Source: an uncultured Actinomycetes bacterium
GTDB taxonomy: Bacteria > Actinomycetota > UBA4738 > HRBIN12
Length of the DNA stretch: 64,000 nucleotides
Direction: 5' to 3'
Assembly (NCBI GenBank): GCA_963704725.1
Contig: OY969934.1
Span: forward strand, 1,536,001-1,600,000
Shown: positions 32,896 through 39,536 of the stretch, in pieces
Numbering within the stretch: position 1 is the stretch's first letter
Layout: each line of letters begins with the position of its first letter
Made by a program: the position numbers and the translations under genes
Notes under the pieces: generated by a model
Databases searched by the model: none
Told to the model about the DNA's origin: nothing
Seen by the model: only the letters and a program-made list of their open reading frames with translations

Positions 32896-33866
32896 CGCGA
32901 CGACCCGCGCTCGTGCTCGCGGTGGTGGTCCTGCTCGGCGCGGCGTCGGCCGGGGCGATCGTGCTCACCCGCGACCGGGGCGGGGCGGCCACCGTCCCGC
33001 CCACCGAGGGCCACGCCGAGGGCCTGACGCTCCTCGTGGCGCGAACGCCCGGCGGTCCGTTCGGCGTCGTGATCGGCTCGACCGGCGCCGAGGACGGGGC
33101 CCTCGTGATCCCATCGCAGGCCCGGGTGACGATCCCGGGGCAGGGCGACGGCACGGTCGAGGACGCATTCGACCTCCCGCCCGAGCAAGCCGCGATCACG
33201 GTGGCCAATCTGCTCGGCGTGGGGATCGACCACCAGGCGGTGCTGACCCGCGATCGCCTCGTCGCCGTCGTGGATCGCGCCGGCGGCATCGTCGTGGGGA
33301 GCGACCGGCTGAGCGGGGAGCAGGCGGCGGGGATGCTCGCCGACGCCGGCGACGGCGGCACGACCGCGTTCCAGCTCGTCGTGACCGGGCTGCTGCAGTC
33401 CACGGTGGTCTGGCAACCGGATGACTTCGCGAAGTCCGATTCCGCGGAGGACGTCCGCCGGGCTCTCACGGCCGCCGGCGGCGCGCAGGTCGCCTCGCTG
33501 CCGGTGACCGAGGCCGCCACGAACGTGTTCCAGGCCGACCCGGAGACCGTGCGGCGGGCCCTGGTCGACGTGTTCGGCGGGCCGGACCGGGTGGTCGTCG
33601 ACGTCATCGTGCTGAACGGCAGCGGCGTCCCCGGGATCGGCGAGCTCGTCGCGGACCGGATCGTGCCCGGGGGCTTCCGCATCGTCGTCTCGCAGAACGC
33701 CGCCAACTTCAACCACGACGAGACGCTCGTCGTGGTGGGATCGGCCGACGACGTCGCTCTGGGCGAGCGTGTGCGAGACTTGTTGGGAACGGGAAGCGTG
33801 AACGTGTCCGTCGCGTCGGGGATCGCTCCCGTGACGATCGTGGTGGGGAAGGACTTCGCAGGTTGA
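32892..33866 (+). CDS. LytR/CpsA/Psr-like envelope protein with LytR_C domain (degenerate LCP domain)
   Basis: N-terminal TM; C-terminal [13 protein letters not shown]...NA...TIVVGKDF. Confidence 0.7.
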
Positions 33867-33884
33867 TCGAAACCGAAGGACGGC

Positions 33885-34283
33885 GTGCCGGGTAGGGCCG
33901 AGGGCTCACAGGAGAGCCAGGAGGTCGCGCTCGCGGCGGCTCGAGCCGCCGCCGCCAAGCAGGCCGAGGACATCGCGATCCTCGACGTGCATGGCCTGAT
34001 CGTCATCACCGACTACTTCGTGATCTGCTCGGGCGGCACCGAGCGGCAGGTCAAGACGATCGTCGAAGAGGTCGAGCGGGCGCTACGGGACCTCGATCGC
34101 AAACCGCTGCGCCGCGAGGGCGAGACCGAGGCCCGCTGGGTGCTGCTCGACTACGTCGACGTCGTCGTGCACGTCTTCGCGGAAGAGGAACGCGACTACT
34201 ACGACCTCGAACGCCTGTGGCGCGACGCCCCGCGCGTCGAGCTCGACGAGCGCGGGCAGGCCGCGGCCGGTTCGCTAGACTGA
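33885..34283 (+). CDS. rsfS: Ribosome silencing factor
   Basis: KQAEDIAILDV, TDYFVICSG, WVLLDYVDVVVHVF, YDLERLW. Confidence 0.95.
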   Translation: MPGRAEGSQESQEVALAAARAAAAKQAEDIAILDVHGLIVITDYFVICSGGTERQVKTIVEEVERALRDLDRKPLRREGETEARWVLLDYVDVVVHVFAEEERDYYDLERLWRDAPRVELDERGQAAAGSLD

Positions 34284-34292
34284 GGCTCCCGC

Positions 34293-34365
34293 GGGCCCAT
34301 AGCTCAGTTGGTAGAGCACATGGCTGGCAGCCATGAGGTCGGGGGTTCGAGTCCCCCTGGGTCCA
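34293..34365 (+). tRNA. tRNA-Ala(GGC); integration target
   Basis: GGGCCCA/TGGGTCC-A acceptor with G3:U70, anticodon stem CATGG/CCATG with loop CT-GGC-AG, T-arm GGGGG-TTCGAGT-CCCCC. Confidence 0.96.
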
Positions 34366-35123
34366 CTTTCAATGCCTTATTCGAACTCGGGCGAGAGAAG
34401 AGAGGCGCGAAGACCTCAGAGAACTCGGCCCGGCCGATCGTGCGATCCTTGATGTAGACGGCCTCGAGCACGGCGTCGTTGAAGCGTCGTCGTACCGACG
34501 GTCGCGCCTTCAGATACGCGGCGTGACAGTTCCCCGCGAGCCGGATGGCCGTTCGAAGCACGTCCTGCCAGCCCTCGAGGTCGCCCTCCGTCGCCTGGAG
34601 CTCGGCCTTGGCCGCATGCTCGGCGAAGCCGATGCGGTCCTGCTCCGTCTTCAGGAGATCGAGCGGGATCGCGTTCGCGTAGAAGGCCTGAAGGAGCTTG
34701 CCGCGCTCGTCGGCCGCCTTGGCGAGCGTCTTCGTGAGCACCACCCGTCGCTGCGAGGCCTCGGCCTGCCGATCGACGATCTCGGCCTCCAGCTCCTCGG
34801 TGAGCCGGCGTACCCATGAGGGTGGCAGCTGGATCCTCCCGTACAGGTCCTCGACGAGCGCCTCGGCGTCGCCGGCCAGGATGTAGGGCTGGCGGCAACC
34901 GGTGCGCGCGGTCCCTCGCTGGCCGAGGCAGTAGAAGTACAGGTACTTGCCCTTGGCGAGCGTGAGCGACAGGCGCCTTCCGCACTCCCCGCAGTGCAGC
35001 AGGCCCTTCAGGTAGTGCTCGTGGCGACGCTGGCGAACCCCGGCGACGTCGCGGGCCTGGAGCGTCTCTTGGACCCGGTCGAACAGGCTCTGGGGGATGA
35101 GCGCCTTGTGCTGGCCCGGATAC
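34304..35123 (-). pseudogene. Large serine recombinase (integrase), C-terminal part only; 5' end lost at the IS256 junction; reads antisense into tRNA-Ala
   Basis: YPGQHKALIPQSLFDRVQ (end of recombinase domain), YLKGLLHCGECG...YFYC...C zinc ribbon, coiled coil. Stop at 34304-34306 lies inside the tRNA D-arm. Confidence 0.88.
34345..34388 (+). other. attL: tRNA T-loop GTTCGA, core GGTCCAC (34360-34366), element arm TATTCGAACTC (34378-34388)
   Basis: Core repeated at 38529-38535; arm is the exact inverse of GAGTTCGAATA at 38507-38517. Confidence 0.75.
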
Positions 35124-36524
35124 GGGTCTGTCCGATTCTTCGTGTAAGTGCGCGGCCGCTGATCATCGGTAGAGAGCGATCCGGTCTCCGTAGTGGAGCA
35201 CCAACGCATTGAGCACCTGCTTCCAGCCGGACACGATCCCCGTCGGGTTCGGGCGATTCTTCTCCCGCTCCAAGACCGCAAGATAGAGCACTTTGAGGGC
35301 GGCCTGCTCGTTGGGGAAGTGCCCTCGTCGGCGGGTGGCGTGGCGAAAGCGCGCGTTCAGGCTCTCGATCGAGTTCGTCGTGTAGATCACCCGGCGGATC
35401 TCCTGCGGGAAGGCAAGGAACGGGATGAACTGCTCCCAGGCCTGGCGCCACAGCTTGATGATCGCCGGATACTTCGGCTCCCACCGATCGGCGAACTCCT
35501 CGAACCGCGCTGCCGCTTGATCCACCGTCGCCGCCGTGTAGATCGGCCTCAGCTCGGTCGTGACCTTCTGCCAGTCGGCCCGCGAGGCGTAACGAAGCGA
35601 CTGGCGGACCAGGTGCACGACGCAGGTCTGCACGGTTGCTGCTGGCCAGGTGGCCTCGATCGCCTCGTCCAGGCCCTTCAGCCCGTCACACGCCACGATC
35701 AGCACGTCCTCGATGCCTCGGTTGCGAAGCTCGGTGAGCACATTGCCCCAGTGCTTGGCGCCCTCGCCCCCGGCACCGATCCAAAGGCCCAGGACGTCTC
35801 GCTCCCCCTCCAGGTTGATGCCACAGGCCACGTAGACGGGGCGATTGGCCACGGCGCCATCTCGGATCTTGACCATGATCGCGTCGATGAACACCACGGC
35901 CCACAGCGCATCGAGCGGGCGGTTCTGCCATTCCACCAGCTCGCCGGCGACCGCGTCGGTGACCTTGGAGATGGTCTCGCGAGAGATCTCGGCTCCGTAG
36001 ATCTCTCGCAGGTGCGCCTGGATCTCCCCGGTCGTCAGCCCCTTGGCGTACAGGGAGATGATCGCCTCGTCGAAGCCGTCCAGGCGCCGGGCGTGCTTGG
36101 GGACGATCTTCGGCTCGAACGTGCCGGCGCGATCGCGAGGAACGTCGATCGGGACCGGACCGACGTCGGTCTGAAGCGTCTTGGGGCTCTTGCCGTTGCG
36201 TGCGTTGGGCGAGTCATTGCGCTCGTAGGGCTCATACCCAAGGTGCTCCGTCAACTCCGCCTCGAGGGCCGATTCCACGACTCGCTTGGTCACCCCCGCC
36301 AGGAGCCCCTCGGGGCCCACGAGGTCGAGGCCCTCCGCTCGTGCCCGCTCCACGAGTTGCTCGGCGAAGCTCGCCAGCTCATCGCGGGAGGGCTGGCGGA
36401 GGCCTCCGGGCATCGACGACCCTGCTCCGTTCTTCGAAGTGTCCATGCGCCATCCTTCCCGGCCCCGACGGCAAGGTCGAGGACCCTCAAGACAGCGCAC
36501 TTACACAGAATTCCTGACAGACCC
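35124..36524 (-). mobile_element. IS256-family insertion sequence (1401 bp)
   Basis: Imperfect 30-bp terminal inverted repeats GGGTCTGTCCGATTCTTCGTGTAAGTGCGC (35124-35153) and GGGTCTGTCAGGAATTCTGTGTAAGTGCGC (revcomp of 36495-36524), 23/30 identical. No target duplication. Confidence 0.92.
35163..36446 (-). CDS. IS256-family (Mutator) DDE transposase
   Basis: AELTEHLGY, RNG, VPRDRAGTFEP, VFIDA, ACDGLKG, QTCVVH, IYTTNSIESLN. Confidence 0.95.
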   Translation of the reverse strand: MDTSKNGAGSSMPGGLRQPSRDELASFAEQLVERARAEGLDLVGPEGLLAGVTKRVVESALEAELTEHLGYEPYERNDSPNARNGKSPKTLQTDVGPVPIDVPRDRAGTFEPKIVPKHARRLDGFDEAIISLYAKGLTTGEIQAHLREIYGAEISRETISKVTDAVAGELVEWQNRPLDALWAVVFIDAIMVKIRDGAVANRPVYVACGINLEGERDVLGLWIGAGGEGAKHWGNVLTELRNRGIEDVLIVACDGLKGLDEAIEATWPAATVQTCVVHLVRQSLRYASRADWQKVTTELRPIYTAATVDQAAARFEEFADRWEPKYPAIIKLWRQAWEQFIPFLAFPQEIRRVIYTTNSIESLNARFRHATRRRGHFPNEQAALKVLYLAVLEREKNRPNPTGIVSGWKQVLNALVLHYGDRIALYR

Positions 36525-37160
36525 GAGGTGCCGAACCCCTCCCCACCACTGTCGCTGTCGCTAAGCGGATTCCAGAGATTGACTGAGACGCAACGAATCG
36601 AATGGCTTGACTCGTTCACTGACTACTGGGGTCTAGGAGGGTGGTTCGAGGCCATCCGGGGCGTGTTGATGGCTGGAAGAGCGACTTCCTTCATGGACAG
36701 AGGGACCTGGTCATCATGGGTTGACGCGAGCATTCTTCATGCAATCTCTGAGGGGATGATGATCCAGAGCGGTGTCATCCAGCACAGTAGGAACCCAGGT
36801 GCTCAGGAATGGGCCGCGTTCTTCGAGGCCCGTCAGACAACCAGCAGACAGACATCCGCAGACACTGGTCTATTTGGCCTGTGGGCCAACGCCGAGTCGG
36901 CCGCCACCCAATTTGGCCGGTACACGGCTGCAAACCATGGGGCCGTTCCGACAGAAGATGAAACAAACGTCGACATGTGGGCGACCGGTTGGCGTGCCGG
37001 AGTCCGGTGGAGGAGTGCCGAGCCAACGCCGGCAGACTACCTGACACCGGAGGGCTTCATCGGGCAAATCGGGCAAGTCTGGGGCGGAGCTCTCTATGAT
37101 CCGACGCTTCCAGCACCCGTCGTTATGCAGCTCACGATGTATGTCTATCTTGGCTTCTAG
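36525..37160 (+). pseudogene. 5'-truncated orphan ORF (211 aa remain), Trp-rich; possible C-terminal toxin-like domain of a larger protein
   Basis: Frame is open from the IS boundary to TAG 37160 with no convincing start or RBS. Atypical codon usage; next gene begins 13 nt downstream. Confidence 0.55.
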
Positions 37161-37173
37161 CGAAAGGGGGCGG

Positions 37174-38244
37174 ATGATGCGCGAAGTTGCCGCCTTGATA
37201 TCGGTCGGCTTGCTTGCTGCCGCATGCTCGAGTTCCCCAGGACAAGTAGCGCCTTCCTTCGTTCAAGGCTCAGTCGTGGATACGCAGCCCGGCAGGATCG
37301 CTGGGCTTGCATGGCCGTCCGCGGAGACCCTGGTCTTCGAGATAGACGACGAACCCGCCGATGTCTCGAACGCAGCCGAAATCTGGCGTGTTCAACTCGA
37401 TGGAACCTCCCGTAGCCAAGTCTTGCTTCCGCAGCTGACGGATTGCAGGCGGACCCGTTATCACAACCCAATTGCCCTTGGGGGCGGCTCGGTAGGTATT
37501 GTACAGGCTTGCGACCTTCAATCGCCCGGTCGGGAGCCAACCTCCTACGCGCTTCTGGCTCTGGACCCGGACCTTGGAGACACGAAACCGCTTGTCAGTA
37601 GTGACCCTTTGGGGTTCCTTGACTCGTTCGCGGCTCCAGTAGCGGCGCCCAATGCGGAACGCGATGCTGCGTTGCTAGCAGTTGGAGATCAGGTGTGTAG
37701 CACGATTGCGTTCGTCGACAAGGACGGCGCGCACCCATTGGACCTATCAATCGGACACGGAACCGAGAGTTGGAATCTGAGTCAGTTCTTCGTCGATGAT
37801 TCCAGAACCTGCGTTGAGCAGGGGCGAGCCGCATGGCCGACATGGTCGAGAAGCAATGGTCTGATTGCCTTCCTCGCCTCGCCCCAGTCCCTGGGGGTGG
37901 GCGGGCTCGCGCGCATGGAACTCCCGTGGAACATCTATCGCTGGTCACTCACTCAAGATCGTGCTCAGACCCTTCTTGAGAACGTCCGCTTCCCGAGGGA
38001 TCTGACATGGTCGCCCGATGGCGAGTGGCTGGCATTCGGAGGTGAGATCGGCGGCCGAGATGGACTATGGTTGCTGAATCCTGCAACGTCGGCCGTTGTT
38101 GAGGTGACTGATGATGCCGTGCTCGCGCTTGCCTGGTCGCCGGATGGTCAGTCAATTGCCGCCTCGGTTGCTACGACGTCGGATGAAGTGACCGGTCCAA
38201 GGGAGCTCGTGACTTATAGCGTCGCTTCTCTTCTCGAGGGCTGA
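37174..38244 (+). CDS. Lipoprotein with TolB/WD40-like beta-propeller repeats
   Basis: Signal peptide with lipobox LLAAA-C; repeats LAWPS, PTWSRS, LTWSPDG, LAWSPDG; AAGGGGG RBS. Confidence 0.8.
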   Translation: MMREVAALISVGLLAAACSSSPGQVAPSFVQGSVVDTQPGRIAGLAWPSAETLVFEIDDEPADVSNAAEIWRVQLDGTSRSQVLLPQLTDCRRTRYHNPIALGGGSVGIVQACDLQSPGREPTSYALLALDPDLGDTKPLVSSDPLGFLDSFAAPVAAPNAERDAALLAVGDQVCSTIAFVDKDGAHPLDLSIGHGTESWNLSQFFVDDSRTCVEQGRAAWPTWSRSNGLIAFLASPQSLGVGGLARMELPWNIYRWSLTQDRAQTLLENVRFPRDLTWSPDGEWLAFGGEIGGRDGLWLLNPATSAVVEVTDDAVLALAWSPDGQSIAASVATTSDEVTGPRELVTYSVASLLEG

Positions 38245-38506
38245 TGAGGGTGGGCGCGGATCTGCCCGCTTCGACTGGGAACTCATGGAAGGTCGTATTC
38301 CCCCGGCGGTTCATAGGTGACAAGTCGCGAGATCGGCGGCCAGTGTCGATCCCAATCATTGGCCTGCTTGTTACGGGCCCTGGATGGAACCCCGGTCAGG
38401 GGCGTGGCTCCTTAGGCCGACGGTCTCGTCTAGGGGAAACGCCGGCCGAGTCTCGAGACCTACATCGCTCACCAGGCCGTGGAACTGAGCAGCCAGACTC
38501 CGCCAG

Positions 38507-38537
38507 GAGTTCGAATAGCATCCCCTCAGGTCCACCA
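38507..38537 (+). other. attR: arm GAGTTCGAATA, core GGTCCAC, displaced tRNA end (CCA)
   Basis: TCCCCTCAGGTCCAC matches the tRNA end TCCCCCTGGGTCCAC at 12/15; rejoining at the core gives ...GGGTCCACCA. Confidence 0.75.
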
Positions 38538-38645
38538 AAGTTCGTGCGTGGCGTGACCAGCAGTTCGCTTGGTCAGTGCTGACGGGATTCGAACTGCGCT
38601 TTCCGCTTGCATGTTGCCGGGTCGGTCCCTATCGGCTGAAGCGGC

Positions 38646-39092
38646 TCAGGCACCCTTGCGGATGTCGGATGCTCGGATGCCTTCGGCCCTCGCTACGGCG
38701 AGCTGGCGTTCGTCGCCCGAGACCAGCTCGGTGCAGCCCAGTTCGATCAGTGCGGCGATGTGCAGGATGTCAAGCGTTCGAGCAAGCGTGGTCGATGCGT
38801 GCGTCTCCGACAGGTGTCCAGCTCGGCGAAACATCGGCTCCAGGTCGATGGTCGGTCGTTCGAGGCGGCCCTCGTCCAGGTCGTCATCCACATGCCCGAG
38901 GAGAGTCCGGAGCTCTCCCGCATCGATCTGGGATCTTCCGTGCAGGAGACGAAGGGCGTTTCTCACCTCTAGGTCGTGAAGCGGCGTCCACGGCACCGAG
39001 ACGTGCTTCCGCAGTTCGGCACGCGCACGGGCCGAGTGCACCTCGTTGACGTAGACCGCGATCAGGGCGCTCGAGTCGAAGTAGACCTTCAC
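38646..39092 (-). CDS. vapC: VapC-type PIN-domain toxin
   Basis: VYFDSSALIAVYVNE, LEVRNAL, RTLDILHIA, VSGDERQ. GTG start overlaps the antitoxin stop (GTGA). Confidence 0.9.
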   Translation of the reverse strand: MKVYFDSSALIAVYVNEVHSARARAELRKHVSVPWTPLHDLEVRNALRLLHGRSQIDAGELRTLLGHVDDDLDEGRLERPTIDLEPMFRRAGHLSETHASTTLARTLDILHIAALIELGCTELVSGDERQLAVARAEGIRASDIRKGA

Positions 39093-39331
39093 CGGTCCCC
39101 ACGGTCTTCGGAGACCTGCCGACTTGGGGGAGGTGTGATGCGTCTTCGTCCCATCGCGCCTCGCGCTCGCGCCGCCAGATCGGGCCACGGCTGCGTCGGT
39201 GTCGGCCTCGCCGGCACGAGTCGGGCTATCGGGCGCCCGCGGCGGGTGATCTGGACGGACTCTCCGCTCTCCACACGATCCAGAATGGTCCGAATCTCCC
39301 GCTGCAACTCCCGCACCGCCACGTTCTTCAT
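39089..39331 (-). CDS. Phd/YefM-family antitoxin
   Basis: MKNVAVRELQ...LDRVESGESVQITRRGRPIARLVP. Confidence 0.9.
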   Translation of the reverse strand: MKNVAVRELQREIRTILDRVESGESVQITRRGRPIARLVPARPTPTQPWPDLAARARGAMGRRRITPPPSRQVSEDRGDR

Positions 39332-39368
39332 GTCATGCATCTTGCATGACATCTGGCCTTCTCGTCAA
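39330..39368 (-). promoter_or_regulatory. TA promoter (TTGACG-N18-CAAGAT) overlapped by palindromic operator ATGTCATGCA-N3-TGCATGACAT
   Basis: Perfect 10-bp inverted arms at 39330-39352 cover the -10 and the start codon. Confidence 0.75.
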
Positions 39369-39378
39369 GGCTTGGGAC

Positions 39379-39536
39379 TCACGAGGCGAGGCGATCGAGT
39401 CTCACCTCGGCGCCGGTCACCGGCGGTTGATGGCTGCCAAGGCCGGTCGGAGCGGCCGGAAGGACACCGCCCGGCGGATCGAGGAGATCCTGCGCCGGGA
39501 GGCCCCCCGATCGCGCTGATCGTCGATGCCGGGCCT
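39379..39536 (+). pseudogene. Decayed CopG/RHH-type antitoxin C-terminal half plus first codons of a PIN toxin
   Basis: Frame reads EAIESHLGAGHRRLMAAKAGRSGRKDTARRIEEILRRE-APRSR* (stop 39519). An overlapping frame reads LIVDAGP, a typical PIN N-terminus. Confidence 0.55.

What the first reader, a model, noticed from the sequence alone, without database searches (positions are those of the whole stretch)
34304..38535. Serine integrase whose att site lies inside its own gene: recombination swaps its C-terminus, and the integrated form ends in antisense tRNA
Seen: the minus-strand integrase frame has no stop before the core GGTCCAC (34360-34366). It continues through the tRNA-Ala antisense strand as ...SSNKALKVD-PGGLEPPTSWLPAMCSTN* (stop 34304). 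Joining the element ends at the core (38529-38535) keeps the frame open and gives ...SSNKALKVD-LRGCYSNSWRSLAAQFHGLVSDVGLETRPAFPLDETVGLRSHAPDRGSIQGP* (stop 38371-38373). The att arms are therefore protein-coding (SSN, YSN, and LEP from the T-loop). Established: some mycobacteriophages carry attP inside the repressor gene and use integration to change its C-terminus. Inference: here the recombinase rewrites itself, giving state-specific isoforms that could differ in stability or directionality, possibly without a separate directionality factor, and its mRNA is antisense to the tRNA. This copy lacks the catalytic N-terminus, so intact homologues are needed for tests.
Basis: partly seen in the sequence, partly recalled or inferred. 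Interest (0 to 1): 0.85.

Follow-up and report, generated by a model that had tools for sequence, protein, structure and literature searches.

The report
Serine integrase gene spanning its attachment site
This is the broken remnant of a small mobile island whose serine integrase gene runs across its own attachment site into a tRNA gene, a real, family-wide arrangement already noted once before in Dehalococcoides.

Summary
The minus-strand integrase frame (34304-35122) has no stop before the tRNA-Ala(GGC) 3' end and reads antisense through the tRNA. The far end at 38529-38535 is a genuine attR.

The 7-bp repeat alone is at chance level. Three things validate the site:
- Two intact paralogous islands in the same genome, at tRNA-Ala(CGC) and tmRNA, have the same P arm ending exactly at this core.
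- An unoccupied orthologous site exists in a relative.
- The half-site geometry matches large serine recombinases: a TTCGA motif lies 5 bp further out in attP than in the tRNA T-loop.

The window copy is dead. An IS256-family element replaced its catalytic N-terminus.

The arrangement holds across an actinobacterial clade. In every assessable homologue the gene runs past the core, into tRNA/tmRNA genes or fragments, or into another P arm. The free-form tail is kept open (0 of 18 with stops, against 5-8 of 18 in other frames) and carries conserved leucines with synonymous variation.

Whether the tail swap changes activity, stability or directionality is untested. Dehalococcoides DsiB (2011) and tyrosine integrases of Mx8 and SSV are direct precedents, so this is a new variant of a known kind.

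The parts
34293..34366 (+). tRNA-Ala(GGC). Its T-arm and acceptor 3' strand form the B arm of attL. The last base, C34366, is followed by TTT instead of the CA that would complete CCA.
   Evidence: ARAGORN; Rfam tRNA 72 bits. Orthologues in relatives end in CCA or C.
34362..34365 (.). Core TCCA (tRNA positions 70-73) shared by attL and attR of all three window-type islands. The inferred 2-bp crossover is at 34363-34364, give or take 1 base.
   Evidence: Comparison of attL and attR. The centre of symmetry between the two TTCGAA motifs falls on C71. The type-4 island shares only CTA. The crossover is inferred, not measured.
34365..34392 (.). P' arm of attL. It contains CTTATTCGAAC (34376-34386), which on the minus strand encodes the SSNK of the integrase.
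   Evidence: The same motif sits at the same distance from the discriminator base in 8 of the 10 relatives printed. Window-type copies are near-identical.
34304..35122 (-). Integrase remnant, the C-terminal 272 codons plus stop: end of the recombinase domain, zinc ribbon, coiled coil, and a tail read antisense through the tRNA. The stop at 34304-34306 lies inside the tRNA gene.
   Evidence: It is 91-93% identical to two full-length paralogues.
35123..36525 (-). IS256-family insertion sequence (transposase 35163-36500). It truncates the integrase. It is a single copy in the genome and has no target-site duplication.
   Evidence: Inverted repeats; Transposase_mut E=1e-126; single megablast hit and flanks.
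36526..38502 (+). Remaining island interior: an ORF of unknown family ending at 37160, and a 382-aa ORF (37096-38244) with weak PD40/WD40 beta-propeller hits. Composition looks atypical (impression from reading the sequence, not computed).
   Evidence: No Replic_Relax gene is left in this island, unlike islands 2 and 3.
38503..38535 (.). attR. The P arm carries GTTCGAAT (38509-38516), placed 5 bp further from the core than the T-loop copy in the tRNA. The core GGTCCAC is at 38529-38535.
   Evidence: Conserved P arms at the other islands end here. There are 19 further P arms in 18 of 107 loci, all in integrase orientation and none on the other strand.
38371..38533 (-). Coding sequence of the free-form (attP-state) integrase tail: 53 codons here, against 20-35 codons in most relatives with a complete tail.
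38536..38690 (.). Host flank (B' side). It is homologous to the sequence directly downstream of tRNA-Ala(GGC) in relative G401.
   Evidence: Global alignment against 300 shuffles.

Best explanation
Window 34365-38533 is the decayed remnant of a roughly 4.2-kb integrative island. Its relatives carry a replication-relaxation (Replic_Relax) gene beside the integrase.

**How the family works**
- The integrase is a large serine recombinase that targets the extreme 3' end of tRNA and tmRNA genes.
- I infer that its zinc-ribbon domain reads the T-loop GGTTCGA as the attB motif, and reads a copy of that motif placed 5 bp further out in both arms of attP.
- Strand exchange most likely occurs at tRNA positions 71-72.
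- attP lies wholly inside the last ~45 codons of the integrase gene, in a disordered C-terminal extension after the folded domains.

**Consequence for the gene**
- The free (circular) element encodes an integrase with a tail mostly 20-35 residues long, containing a short leucine-rich helix.
- Integration cuts the gene at the core. The integrated copy ends instead in whatever the antisense strand of the tRNA encodes.

**This copy.** An IS256-family element with an adjacent deletion removed the N-terminal ~230 codons, so it is inactive. Its att sites look intact and could in principle be used in trans by the two 91-93% identical integrases elsewhere in the genome.

**Shown:** anatomy, boundaries, family-wide conservation, an open and partly conserved tail.
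**Inferred:** crossover position, domain-to-motif assignment, any effect of the tail swap.

My best guess, at about one in three, is that the free-form helix tunes integrase activity or level, so the integrated isoform behaves differently, as was proposed for DsiB.
For: **Paralogues in the same genome**
- All four integrase paralogues end antisense in a tRNA-like gene: Ala-GGC, Ala-CGC, tmRNA and Glu-CTC.
- P arms are conserved and end at the core in three islands.
- A fourth island's P arm was found 9.3 kb from tRNA-Glu.

**Site geometry**
- The rebuilt attP is an inverted repeat of GAGTTCGAATA / TATTCGAACTC centred on the core.
- With the crossover at positions 70-72, the motif occupies about positions 16-24 in attP and 11-19 in attB.
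- This is the 5-bp shift described for the LI integrase (PMC3783163, passages read).

**Protein**
- The island 2 integrase has Resolvase + Recombinase + Zn_ribbon_recom domains.
- The fold model's best matches are LSR-DNA complexes: 4KIS, SPbeta, Bxb1, phiC31.

**Spread across genomes**
- Phylum sample: 39 of 401 genomes have a homologue.
- Of the 30 loci fetched, 20 have a convergent tRNA/tmRNA. In 16 of the 16 with an unbroken frame, the first stop lies inside or beyond that gene.
- Species genomes: 18 of 24 loci have a convergent tRNA/tmRNA.
- Metagenomes: 46 of 80 loci are assessable, and in all 46 the frame runs at least 17 codons past the core.
- Of the best 120 database homologues, 90 end in the antisense T-loop peptide and 10 in a P-arm peptide.

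**Free-form tail (18 distinct P arms)**
- 0 of 18 have a stop in codons 9-19, against 5-8 of 18 in each of the five other frames.
- Leu at codon 12 in 16 of 18, using four different codons.
- Ala at codon 14 in 10 of 18, Leu at 16 in 12 of 18, Leu at 19 in 9 of 18.

**Boundary.** Empty-site homology with G401.
Against: - No excision or circle junction was observed. No sequencing run could be listed, so the element's current mobility is unshown.
- pN/pS of tail codons 9-19 is 0.93 in the integrase frame, no better than two of the antisense frames. Beyond a few hydrophobic positions the tail is free to vary.
- AlphaFold2 gives the att-encoded stretch pLDDT below 50 and the terminal helix only 52-58, with no confident docking.
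- In DNA this G+C-rich, open frames of 20-50 codons are common by chance (my own estimate from base composition, not computed in a call). Tail length alone therefore means little.
- The B' arms show no clear shifted motif.
- The crossover assignment assumes that two subfamilies cut in the same register.
- 10 of 30 loci, 6 of 24 and 34 of 80 could not be assessed, because of contig ends, broken genes or diverged motifs.
- The sequences are related, so the counts overstate independence.
Confidence: 0.8

Rival explanations
1. Neutral overlap. The anatomy is as described, but the tails have no function. The attachment site simply sits in a dispensable, disordered C-terminal extension of a compact element, and both isoforms behave alike.
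For: - pN/pS is about 0.93 in the tail.
- The linker is disordered and the terminal helix has low confidence.
- The tail is very variable in sequence, 19 to more than 45 residues long.
- Integrated-state tails are dictated entirely by tRNA sequence.
- McMurdie et al. also thought a functional antisense-ssrA-encoded segment unlikely.
Against: - The integrase frame is open in 18 of 18 P arms over codons 9-19, while every other frame has stops in 5-8 of 18.
- Leu12 is kept in 16 of 18 with four synonymous codons, and there is a heptad-like pattern of Leu at 12, 16 and 19.
- The type-4 subfamily's tail ends in a conserved ...RLPLL...QAAG in several distinct database proteins.
Confidence: 0.45
2. 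Self-rewriting directionality switch. The free-form tail makes the enzyme integration-proficient. Losing it on integration makes the enzyme excision-competent or silent, so no separate directionality factor is needed.
For: - A conserved free-form-only helix directly follows the coiled-coil / zinc-ribbon region that governs directionality in this enzyme class (PMC3783163).
- Islands 2 and 3 share only the integrase, a Replic_Relax gene and about 130 bp, with no obvious small excisionase gene.
Against: - There is no functional data.
- The Replic_Relax protein or a host factor could be the directionality factor.
- The helix is predicted with low confidence and is not docked.
- Directionality factors are too diverse to exclude by looking at ORFs.
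Confidence: 0.12
3. Chance and artefact. The 7-bp repeat and the long open frames are products of G+C-rich DNA, and 38529-38535 is not an attachment site.
For: - GGTCCAC occurs at chance frequency: 15 observed, 14.2 expected.
- G+C-rich DNA has long spurious ORFs.
Against: - P arms are conserved and end exactly at the core in three islands.
- 19 further P arms lie only on the integrase strand.
- Empty-site homology.
- The same layout occurs in relatives whose printed flanks look A+T-rich, G135 and L077.
Confidence: 0.02

Closest known systems
DsiB, the ssrA-specific serine integrase of Dehalococcoides genomic islands (McMurdie et al. 2011, PMC3146451; passages read)
   Same: - A ~540-aa large serine recombinase at the island edge next to attL.
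- The target is the 3' end of the tmRNA gene.
- The gene 'always overlaps attL at its 3' end', with the stop codon only beyond the island, inside ssrA or the neighbouring island.
- Tandem islands occur.
- The authors raised the idea that the gene is complete only on the circular element.
   Different: - DsiB islands make a 20-bp direct repeat with insertion in the T-loop. Here the shared core is 4-7 bp at positions 70-74.
- DsiB comes with a second small serine recombinase (DsiA), ParB and Mom genes. Here the partner is a Replic_Relax gene.
- This clade uses many tRNAs (Ala, Glu, Met, Val, Ile, Leu, Pro, Arg, Gln) as well as tmRNA.
- DsiB tails were reported as divergent. Here the free-form tail shows conserved leucines.
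Integrases of Mx8 and SSV that extend across attP (stated in the Islander paper, PMC4383910, passage read; details of Mx8 IntP/IntX recalled, not read)
   Same: The attachment site lies inside the integrase gene, so integration alters or splits the gene. From recall, Mx8 also targets a tRNA gene.
   Different: These are tyrosine recombinases, with a different chemistry and longer identical cores. SSV integration splits the gene in two rather than swapping a short tail.
Serine recombinases known to use tRNA genes: Mycobacterium AICEs in tRNA-Leu, phage phiRSM1 in tRNA-Ser (Ghinet et al. 2011, PMC3218068, passages read), and the minority of Prochlorococcus tycheposons that carry a large serine recombinase (bioRxiv 10.1101/2020.12.28.424599, passages)
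   Same: A serine recombinase integrating at a tRNA gene. The AICEs are in the same phylum and are small actinobacterial integrative elements.
   Different: The passages read mention no overlap of the gene with the att site. Relatedness was not tested. Ghinet's Table S1 and figures were not visible to me.
Listeria (LI/A118) integrase model of att recognition (Rutherford et al. 2013, PMC3783163, passages read)
   Same: The zinc-ribbon motif sits at half-site positions 16-24 in attP and is shifted 5 bp inward in attB. The folds match: 4KIS is the top Foldseek hit.
   Different: Only about 15-17% sequence identity in the fold alignment. The LI attB is in a protein gene, and the LI gene does not span attP.
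Integration-dependent immunity of mycobacteriophages, with attP inside the repressor gene
   Same: Integration changes the C-terminus of a protein because attP lies inside its gene.
   Different: There the affected gene is the repressor and the integrase is a tyrosine recombinase. Here the recombinase gene itself is rewritten.

Membership tests
Large serine recombinase (serine integrase) | N-terminal resolvase catalytic domain with the nucleophilic serine | tested here: not met
   The window copy lacks it, because the fragment starts at the IS boundary. The intact paralogue of island 2 has Resolvase at E=1.4e-35, with RVST near its start. The family assignment therefore holds for the element, but this copy is a pseudogene.
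Large serine recombinase (serine integrase) | Recombinase domain, zinc-ribbon domain and an inserted coiled coil | tested here: met
   Zn_ribbon_recom matches in the window copy at E=1e-9. Recombinase PF07508 is found in the paralogue. The model of homologue P0091 has two long helices at 200-304. Its best Foldseek matches are 4KIS, SPbeta, Bxb1 and phiC31 integrase complexes, E 2.5e-11 to 1e-4.
Large serine recombinase (serine integrase) | attP is an imperfect inverted repeat around a short crossover, and attB shares little beyond the core, with the outer motif 5 bp closer to the centre | tested here: met
   Arms rebuilt. TTCGA lies 20 bases from the discriminator in the P arm and 15 in the tRNA. 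This was compared with PMC3783163. It is clear for the B/P arms but not for B'.
Large serine recombinase (serine integrase) | 2-bp staggered crossover, recombination activity and unidirectionality | not testable with these tools
   Only inferred from the shared core: TCCA in three islands and CTA in the fourth.
DsiB-type arrangement (serine integrase gene overlapping attL of a tRNA-like gene) | No stop codon inside the island; the frame ends in the target RNA gene or the next island | tested here: met
   Window copy; 16 of 16; 46 of 46.
DsiB-type arrangement (serine integrase gene overlapping attL of a tRNA-like gene) | Sequence homology to DsiB/CcrB and the accompanying DsiA-RecF-ParB-Mom module | not tested
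   No DsiB sequence was obtainable. The neighbouring gene here is Replic_Relax PF13814, not the Dehalococcoides module described.
Mx8/SSV-type integrase spanning attP | Tyrosine recombinase catalytic domain | tested here: not met
   Pfam finds only serine-recombinase domains. This is an analogy of layout only.
IS256 family (for the inserted element) | Mutator-type DDE transposase between terminal inverted repeats | tested here: met
   PF00872 E=1.2e-126. The inverted repeats are 31 nt and 77% complementary.
IS256 family (for the inserted element) | 8-9 bp target-site duplication (feature recalled) | tested here: not met
   The flanks differ. This is consistent with an adjacent deletion that removed the integrase 5' part and whatever lay upstream of it.

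The most novel reading that the evidence does not exclude
The tail swap is a built-in state sensor. The leucine-rich C-terminal helix exists only when attP is intact. It modulates the coiled-coil/zinc-ribbon directionality apparatus or protein stability. The free element would then make an integration-proficient enzyme, and the integrated element a differently behaving one. That would give directionality control without, or in addition to, a separate directionality factor. The family's use of the near-universal T-loop as its attB motif would also explain how it hops among many tRNA and tmRNA targets by changing only the bases next to the crossover.
Probability: 0.15. Interest if true: 0.8.

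Novelty: new variant of a known kind. Interest (0 to 1): 0.55.

Why it matters
**Target choice**
- Serine integrases are the main tools for inserting large DNA, and they are usually described as avoiding tRNA genes. [quoted passage not shown]
- Here a large, mostly uncultured actinobacterial clade does exactly that. 4471 database proteins reach E<=1e-30 among the 8000 scored.
- I infer it reads the T-loop as its attB motif and switches among at least nine tRNA specificities plus tmRNA.
- That gives a natural series for studying how these enzymes retarget.

**Gene layout**
- It also supplies many independent examples of a recombinase gene that is rewritten by its own reaction.
- The hypothesis raised for DsiB in 2011 therefore becomes testable with defined isoforms.

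**Annotation.** These genes have no stop codon of their own in the integrated state, and their ends should not be trusted.

**The window copy itself** is an ordinary dead remnant.

Tried and rejected
- **7-mer as evidence.** The 7-bp core is at chance frequency. The repeat finder did not report it.
- **RNA families.** An Rfam scan of 33800-39400 at E<=1 found only the tRNA and one sub-threshold hit on its antisense strand.
- **Synteny.** blastn of the window against 10 relatives found no similarity downstream of the tRNA beyond the att region. Only a global alignment with shuffles showed the G401 empty-site homology.
- **Finding attR with blastn-short** using the tRNA end or the reversed P' arm gave only noise. 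A motif-plus-core pattern worked for some loci and found nothing or doubtful hits for others, such as G019, G044, G119, G070, G084, G188, L078 and L080. The G173 hit is doubtful and was not used.
- **pN/pS of the tail** is saturated and uninformative.
- **Free replicons.** There are no close relatives in the plasmid collection (best 30-32% identity), the phage collection (best 24-29% among the 15 listed; all 690 below 60%) or IMG/VR. No free replicon with an intact attP was therefore seen. The contiguous attP-like junctions (L074, L166, L167, ten database proteins) may be tandem islands rather than free forms.
- **PDB sequence search** matched only the catalytic domain.
- **Sequencing runs.** None was listed for window 33900-38900 and no RNA holder was listed.
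- **Literature.** 'Mx8'+'intX' gave 0 papers, so Mx8 details are recalled. Searches found no description of this actinobacterial clade or of a conserved free-form tail. These searches cover only the held library.
- **Supplements** were closed. McMurdie Additional files, Ghinet Table S1 and Rutherford Fig. S6B could bear on the overlap and on the motifs.
- **Not attempted.** The second structure job and complex prediction were not used. No directionality-factor candidate was identified.

Full report
**What is in the window**

- ARAGORN and Rfam place tRNA-Ala(GGC) at 34293-34366 on the plus strand, downstream of an rsfS gene.
- On the minus strand an open frame runs from 35281 to a stop at 34304-34306, through 63 of the tRNA's 74 bases.
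- Only its last 272 codons (34307-35122) belong to an integrase.
  - They match the recombinase zinc-ribbon family at E=1e-9.
  - They are 91-93% identical to two full-length proteins elsewhere in the genome.
- Upstream of 35122 lies an insertion sequence.
  - It has 31-nt imperfect inverted repeats at 35123-35153 and 36495-36525.
  - It encodes a Mutator/IS256-type transposase at E=1.2e-126.
  - It is single-copy in the genome and has no target duplication.
- No N-terminal integrase fragment exists anywhere in the genome for this copy. The catalytic part was therefore lost with the insertion.

**Is 38529-38535 really the other end?**

The heptamer GGTCCAC alone proves nothing: 15 copies in the window, 14.2 expected. 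The genome itself gives the control (window = G000:C1:1536001-1600000, one 3.45-Mb contig).

- All four integrase paralogues end antisense in a tRNA-like gene:
  - this one in tRNA-Ala(GGC);
  - an intact 559-codon gene in tRNA-Ala(CGC);
  - an intact gene in the tmRNA gene;
  - a 39%-identical one in tRNA-Glu(CTC).
- The 55 bases left of 38535 recur at 84% identity 12.1 kb from tRNA-Ala(CGC). A 28-base stretch (38507-38534) recurs at 89% identity 9.8 kb from the tmRNA gene.
- In both cases the match is on the far side of the integrase, and the similarity ends at the core.
- Across the three islands, the bases shared between the tRNA end and the far end shrink to TCCA. These are tRNA positions 70-73, which include the G3:U70 wobble partner typical of alanine acceptors (that identity rule is recalled).
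- This explains why two tRNA-Ala genes and tmRNA are all targets. The third, tRNA-Ala(TGC), has the same end and is unoccupied.
- The sequence right of 38535 aligns with what directly follows tRNA-Ala(GGC) in relative G401: score 19 against -13 +/- 4.9 for 300 shuffles, maximum 1. G401 shows no similarity to the island interior.
- In other relatives the same tRNA is occupied by the same type of element (G398) or by the Glu-type paralogue's subfamily (G408, G248).

**Anatomy of the sites**

- Joining the ends in a script gives an attP in which GAGTTCGAATA and TATTCGAACTC form an inverted repeat around the core.
- The gap between the two TTCGAA motifs is 35 bases, centred on C71.
- The fourth island's P arm shares only CTA with tRNA-Glu.
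- If both subfamilies cut in the same register, the 2-bp crossover is at positions 71-72. This is inference.
- In the tRNA the T-loop TTCGA lies 15 bases from the discriminator; in the P arm it lies 20.
- Counted from the crossover, the motif falls at about 11-19 in attB and 16-24 in attP.
- This is the arrangement Rutherford et al. found for the zinc-ribbon motif of the Listeria integrase (PMC3783163, passages read).
- The B' sides show no clear motif.

**Generality**

- *Phylum sample.* In an even sample of 401 genomes of the phylum, 39 have a homologue at E<=1e-40. Of the 30 loci fetched:
  - 20 have a convergent tRNA or tmRNA at the integrase 3' end: Ala, Arg, Glu, Val, Met, Pro, Ile, Leu, tmRNA;
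  - in the 16 whose frame is unbroken, the first stop lies inside or beyond the RNA gene, never before it;
  - four are broken genes;
  - ten had no tRNA called, three of them at contig ends;
  - one of the 16 (L007) comes from an unpublished genome, G226.
- *Species genomes.* 18 of 24 loci have the convergent RNA gene. Record titles name Actinomycetota, Acidimicrobiales-type MAGs, Acidothermus and Frankia.
- *Metagenome contigs.* Of 80 loci, 33 lacked a recognisable P'/core and one ended at the contig end. In all 46 others the frame continues at least 17 codons past the core:
  - 28 run into an ARAGORN-called tRNA-Ala or tmRNA;
  - 2 run into a window-type P arm;
  - 16 run into sequences that, by my reading of the printout, are antisense T-arms of fragments (12) or other P-arm types (4).
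- *Protein database.* Of the best 120 homologues, 90 end in the antisense T-loop peptide, 10 in a P-arm peptide, and 20 are partial or frameshifted.
- *Companion gene.* A Replic_Relax gene sits beside the integrase (directly upstream of it in islands 2 and 3) and gave tblastn hits in 18 of the fetched loci; by my count these represent about a dozen further islands.
- Cargo differs between islands.

**Is the alternative tail more than chance?**

- A pattern that specifies only the half-site found 19 P arms in 18 of 107 loci. All were in integrase orientation, most upstream of the integrase and two contiguous with its 3' end. None was on the other strand.
- With the three islands of this genome, that gives 18 distinct sequences.
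- Beyond the half-site (codons 9-19 after the core):
  - the integrase frame has no stop in 18 of 18, while each of the other five frames has stops in 5-8 of 18;
  - Leu at codon 12 is kept in 16 of 18 with four different codons;
  - Ala at 14 in 10 of 18, Leu at 16 in 12 of 18, Leu at 19 in 9 of 18;
  - most tails end 20-35 codons after the core.
- Against this:
  - overall pN/pS is 0.93 and no better than two antisense frames;
  - the sequences are related;
  - G+C-rich DNA has long open frames anyway.
- An AlphaFold2 model of homologue P0091, which carries a contiguous P-arm tail (53-sequence alignment, mean pLDDT 87.7), is confident up to about residue 345.
  - It gives pLDDT below 50 to the att-encoded residues 347-361.
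  - It predicts a terminal helix at 362-374 with pLDDT of only 52-58.
- The attachment site therefore occupies a disordered linker after the folded enzyme. This explains how DNA and protein constraints can coexist.
- The free form adds a short helix of uncertain role.

**Comparison with what is known**

- The closest case is DsiB of the Dehalococcoides ssrA islands (PMC3146451).
  - It is a serine integrase that always overlaps attL, with its stop only beyond the island.
  - The authors suggested it may be fully functional only on the circle.
- The Islander paper notes that Mx8 and SSV integrases extend across attP. It also says serine recombinases were not known to target tRNA genes (PMC4383910).
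- Ghinet et al. call such targeting rare and list Mycobacterium AICEs and phiRSM1 (PMC3218068). A minority of tycheposons carry a large serine recombinase.
- New here:
  - the breadth of the clade and of its tRNA targets;
  - the T-loop/5-bp-shift reading of its sites;
  - the partly conserved free-form tail.
- None of my searches found these described, within the held library.

**Verdict**

- The functional inference is open. I put it at roughly one in three for some effect, and about 0.12-0.15 for a true directionality switch.
- The window copy is a dead remnant.
- This is a new variant of a known kind. Interest 0.55.

Noticed in passing
window 35123-36525: An IS256-family insertion sequence, single copy in the 3.45-Mb genome, without a target-site duplication. 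It probably arrived with, or caused, a deletion of the integrase 5' part and the gene upstream of it.
   Followed up: partly
window 38576-38660 (minus strand): A tRNA-like remnant just beyond attR. An antisense T-arm-like GGGATTCGAAC reads TGFEL on the plus strand. ARAGORN and Rfam do not call it. Relative G401 has a similar GGGACTCGAAC at the same distance from its tRNA-Ala(GGC).
   Followed up: partly
G000:C1:2379270-2388566 (L049): A fourth island of about 9.3 kb at tRNA-Glu(CTC). Its Replic_Relax gene is 91% identical to that of island 2, but its integrase is only 39% identical. Its P arm is identical, except near the core, to one used at tRNA-Ala(GGC) in genome G248. This points to module exchange and retargeting by a change at the core.
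   Followed up: partly
database proteins P0006, P0023, P0024, P0046, P0095; locus L117: Integrases of the window type that end in the P-arm peptide of the other (Glu/Ala type-4) subfamily. P0006 alone stands for 71 member sequences. The likely cause is tandem islands of two subfamilies at one tRNA-Ala(GGC), which create hybrid junctions.
   Followed up: no
L113 and L131 (metagenome contigs): The integrase tail runs into only a fragment of the tmRNA or tRNA-Ala gene. The complete gene lies 0.6-2.3 kb further on, as if another element had later inserted within the T-loop or anticodon region.
   Followed up: no
G000:C1:995800-1008400 (L047 3805-11132): The cargo of island 2 includes a 1901-aa RHS-repeat/PA14 protein and a CBM96-domain protein. 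Island 3 carries an FtsX-like permease and a MauE/DoxX protein.
   Followed up: no
window 38646-39352 (minus strand): A PIN-domain (VapC-like) ORF with a small overlapping upstream ORF, probably a toxin-antitoxin pair, on the host side of attR.
   Followed up: no
G000 tRNA set: At most 10 of the 54 tRNA genes end in an encoded CCA. The CCA-to-CTT change made by this island type at tRNA-Ala(GGC) should therefore be harmless.
   Followed up: partly
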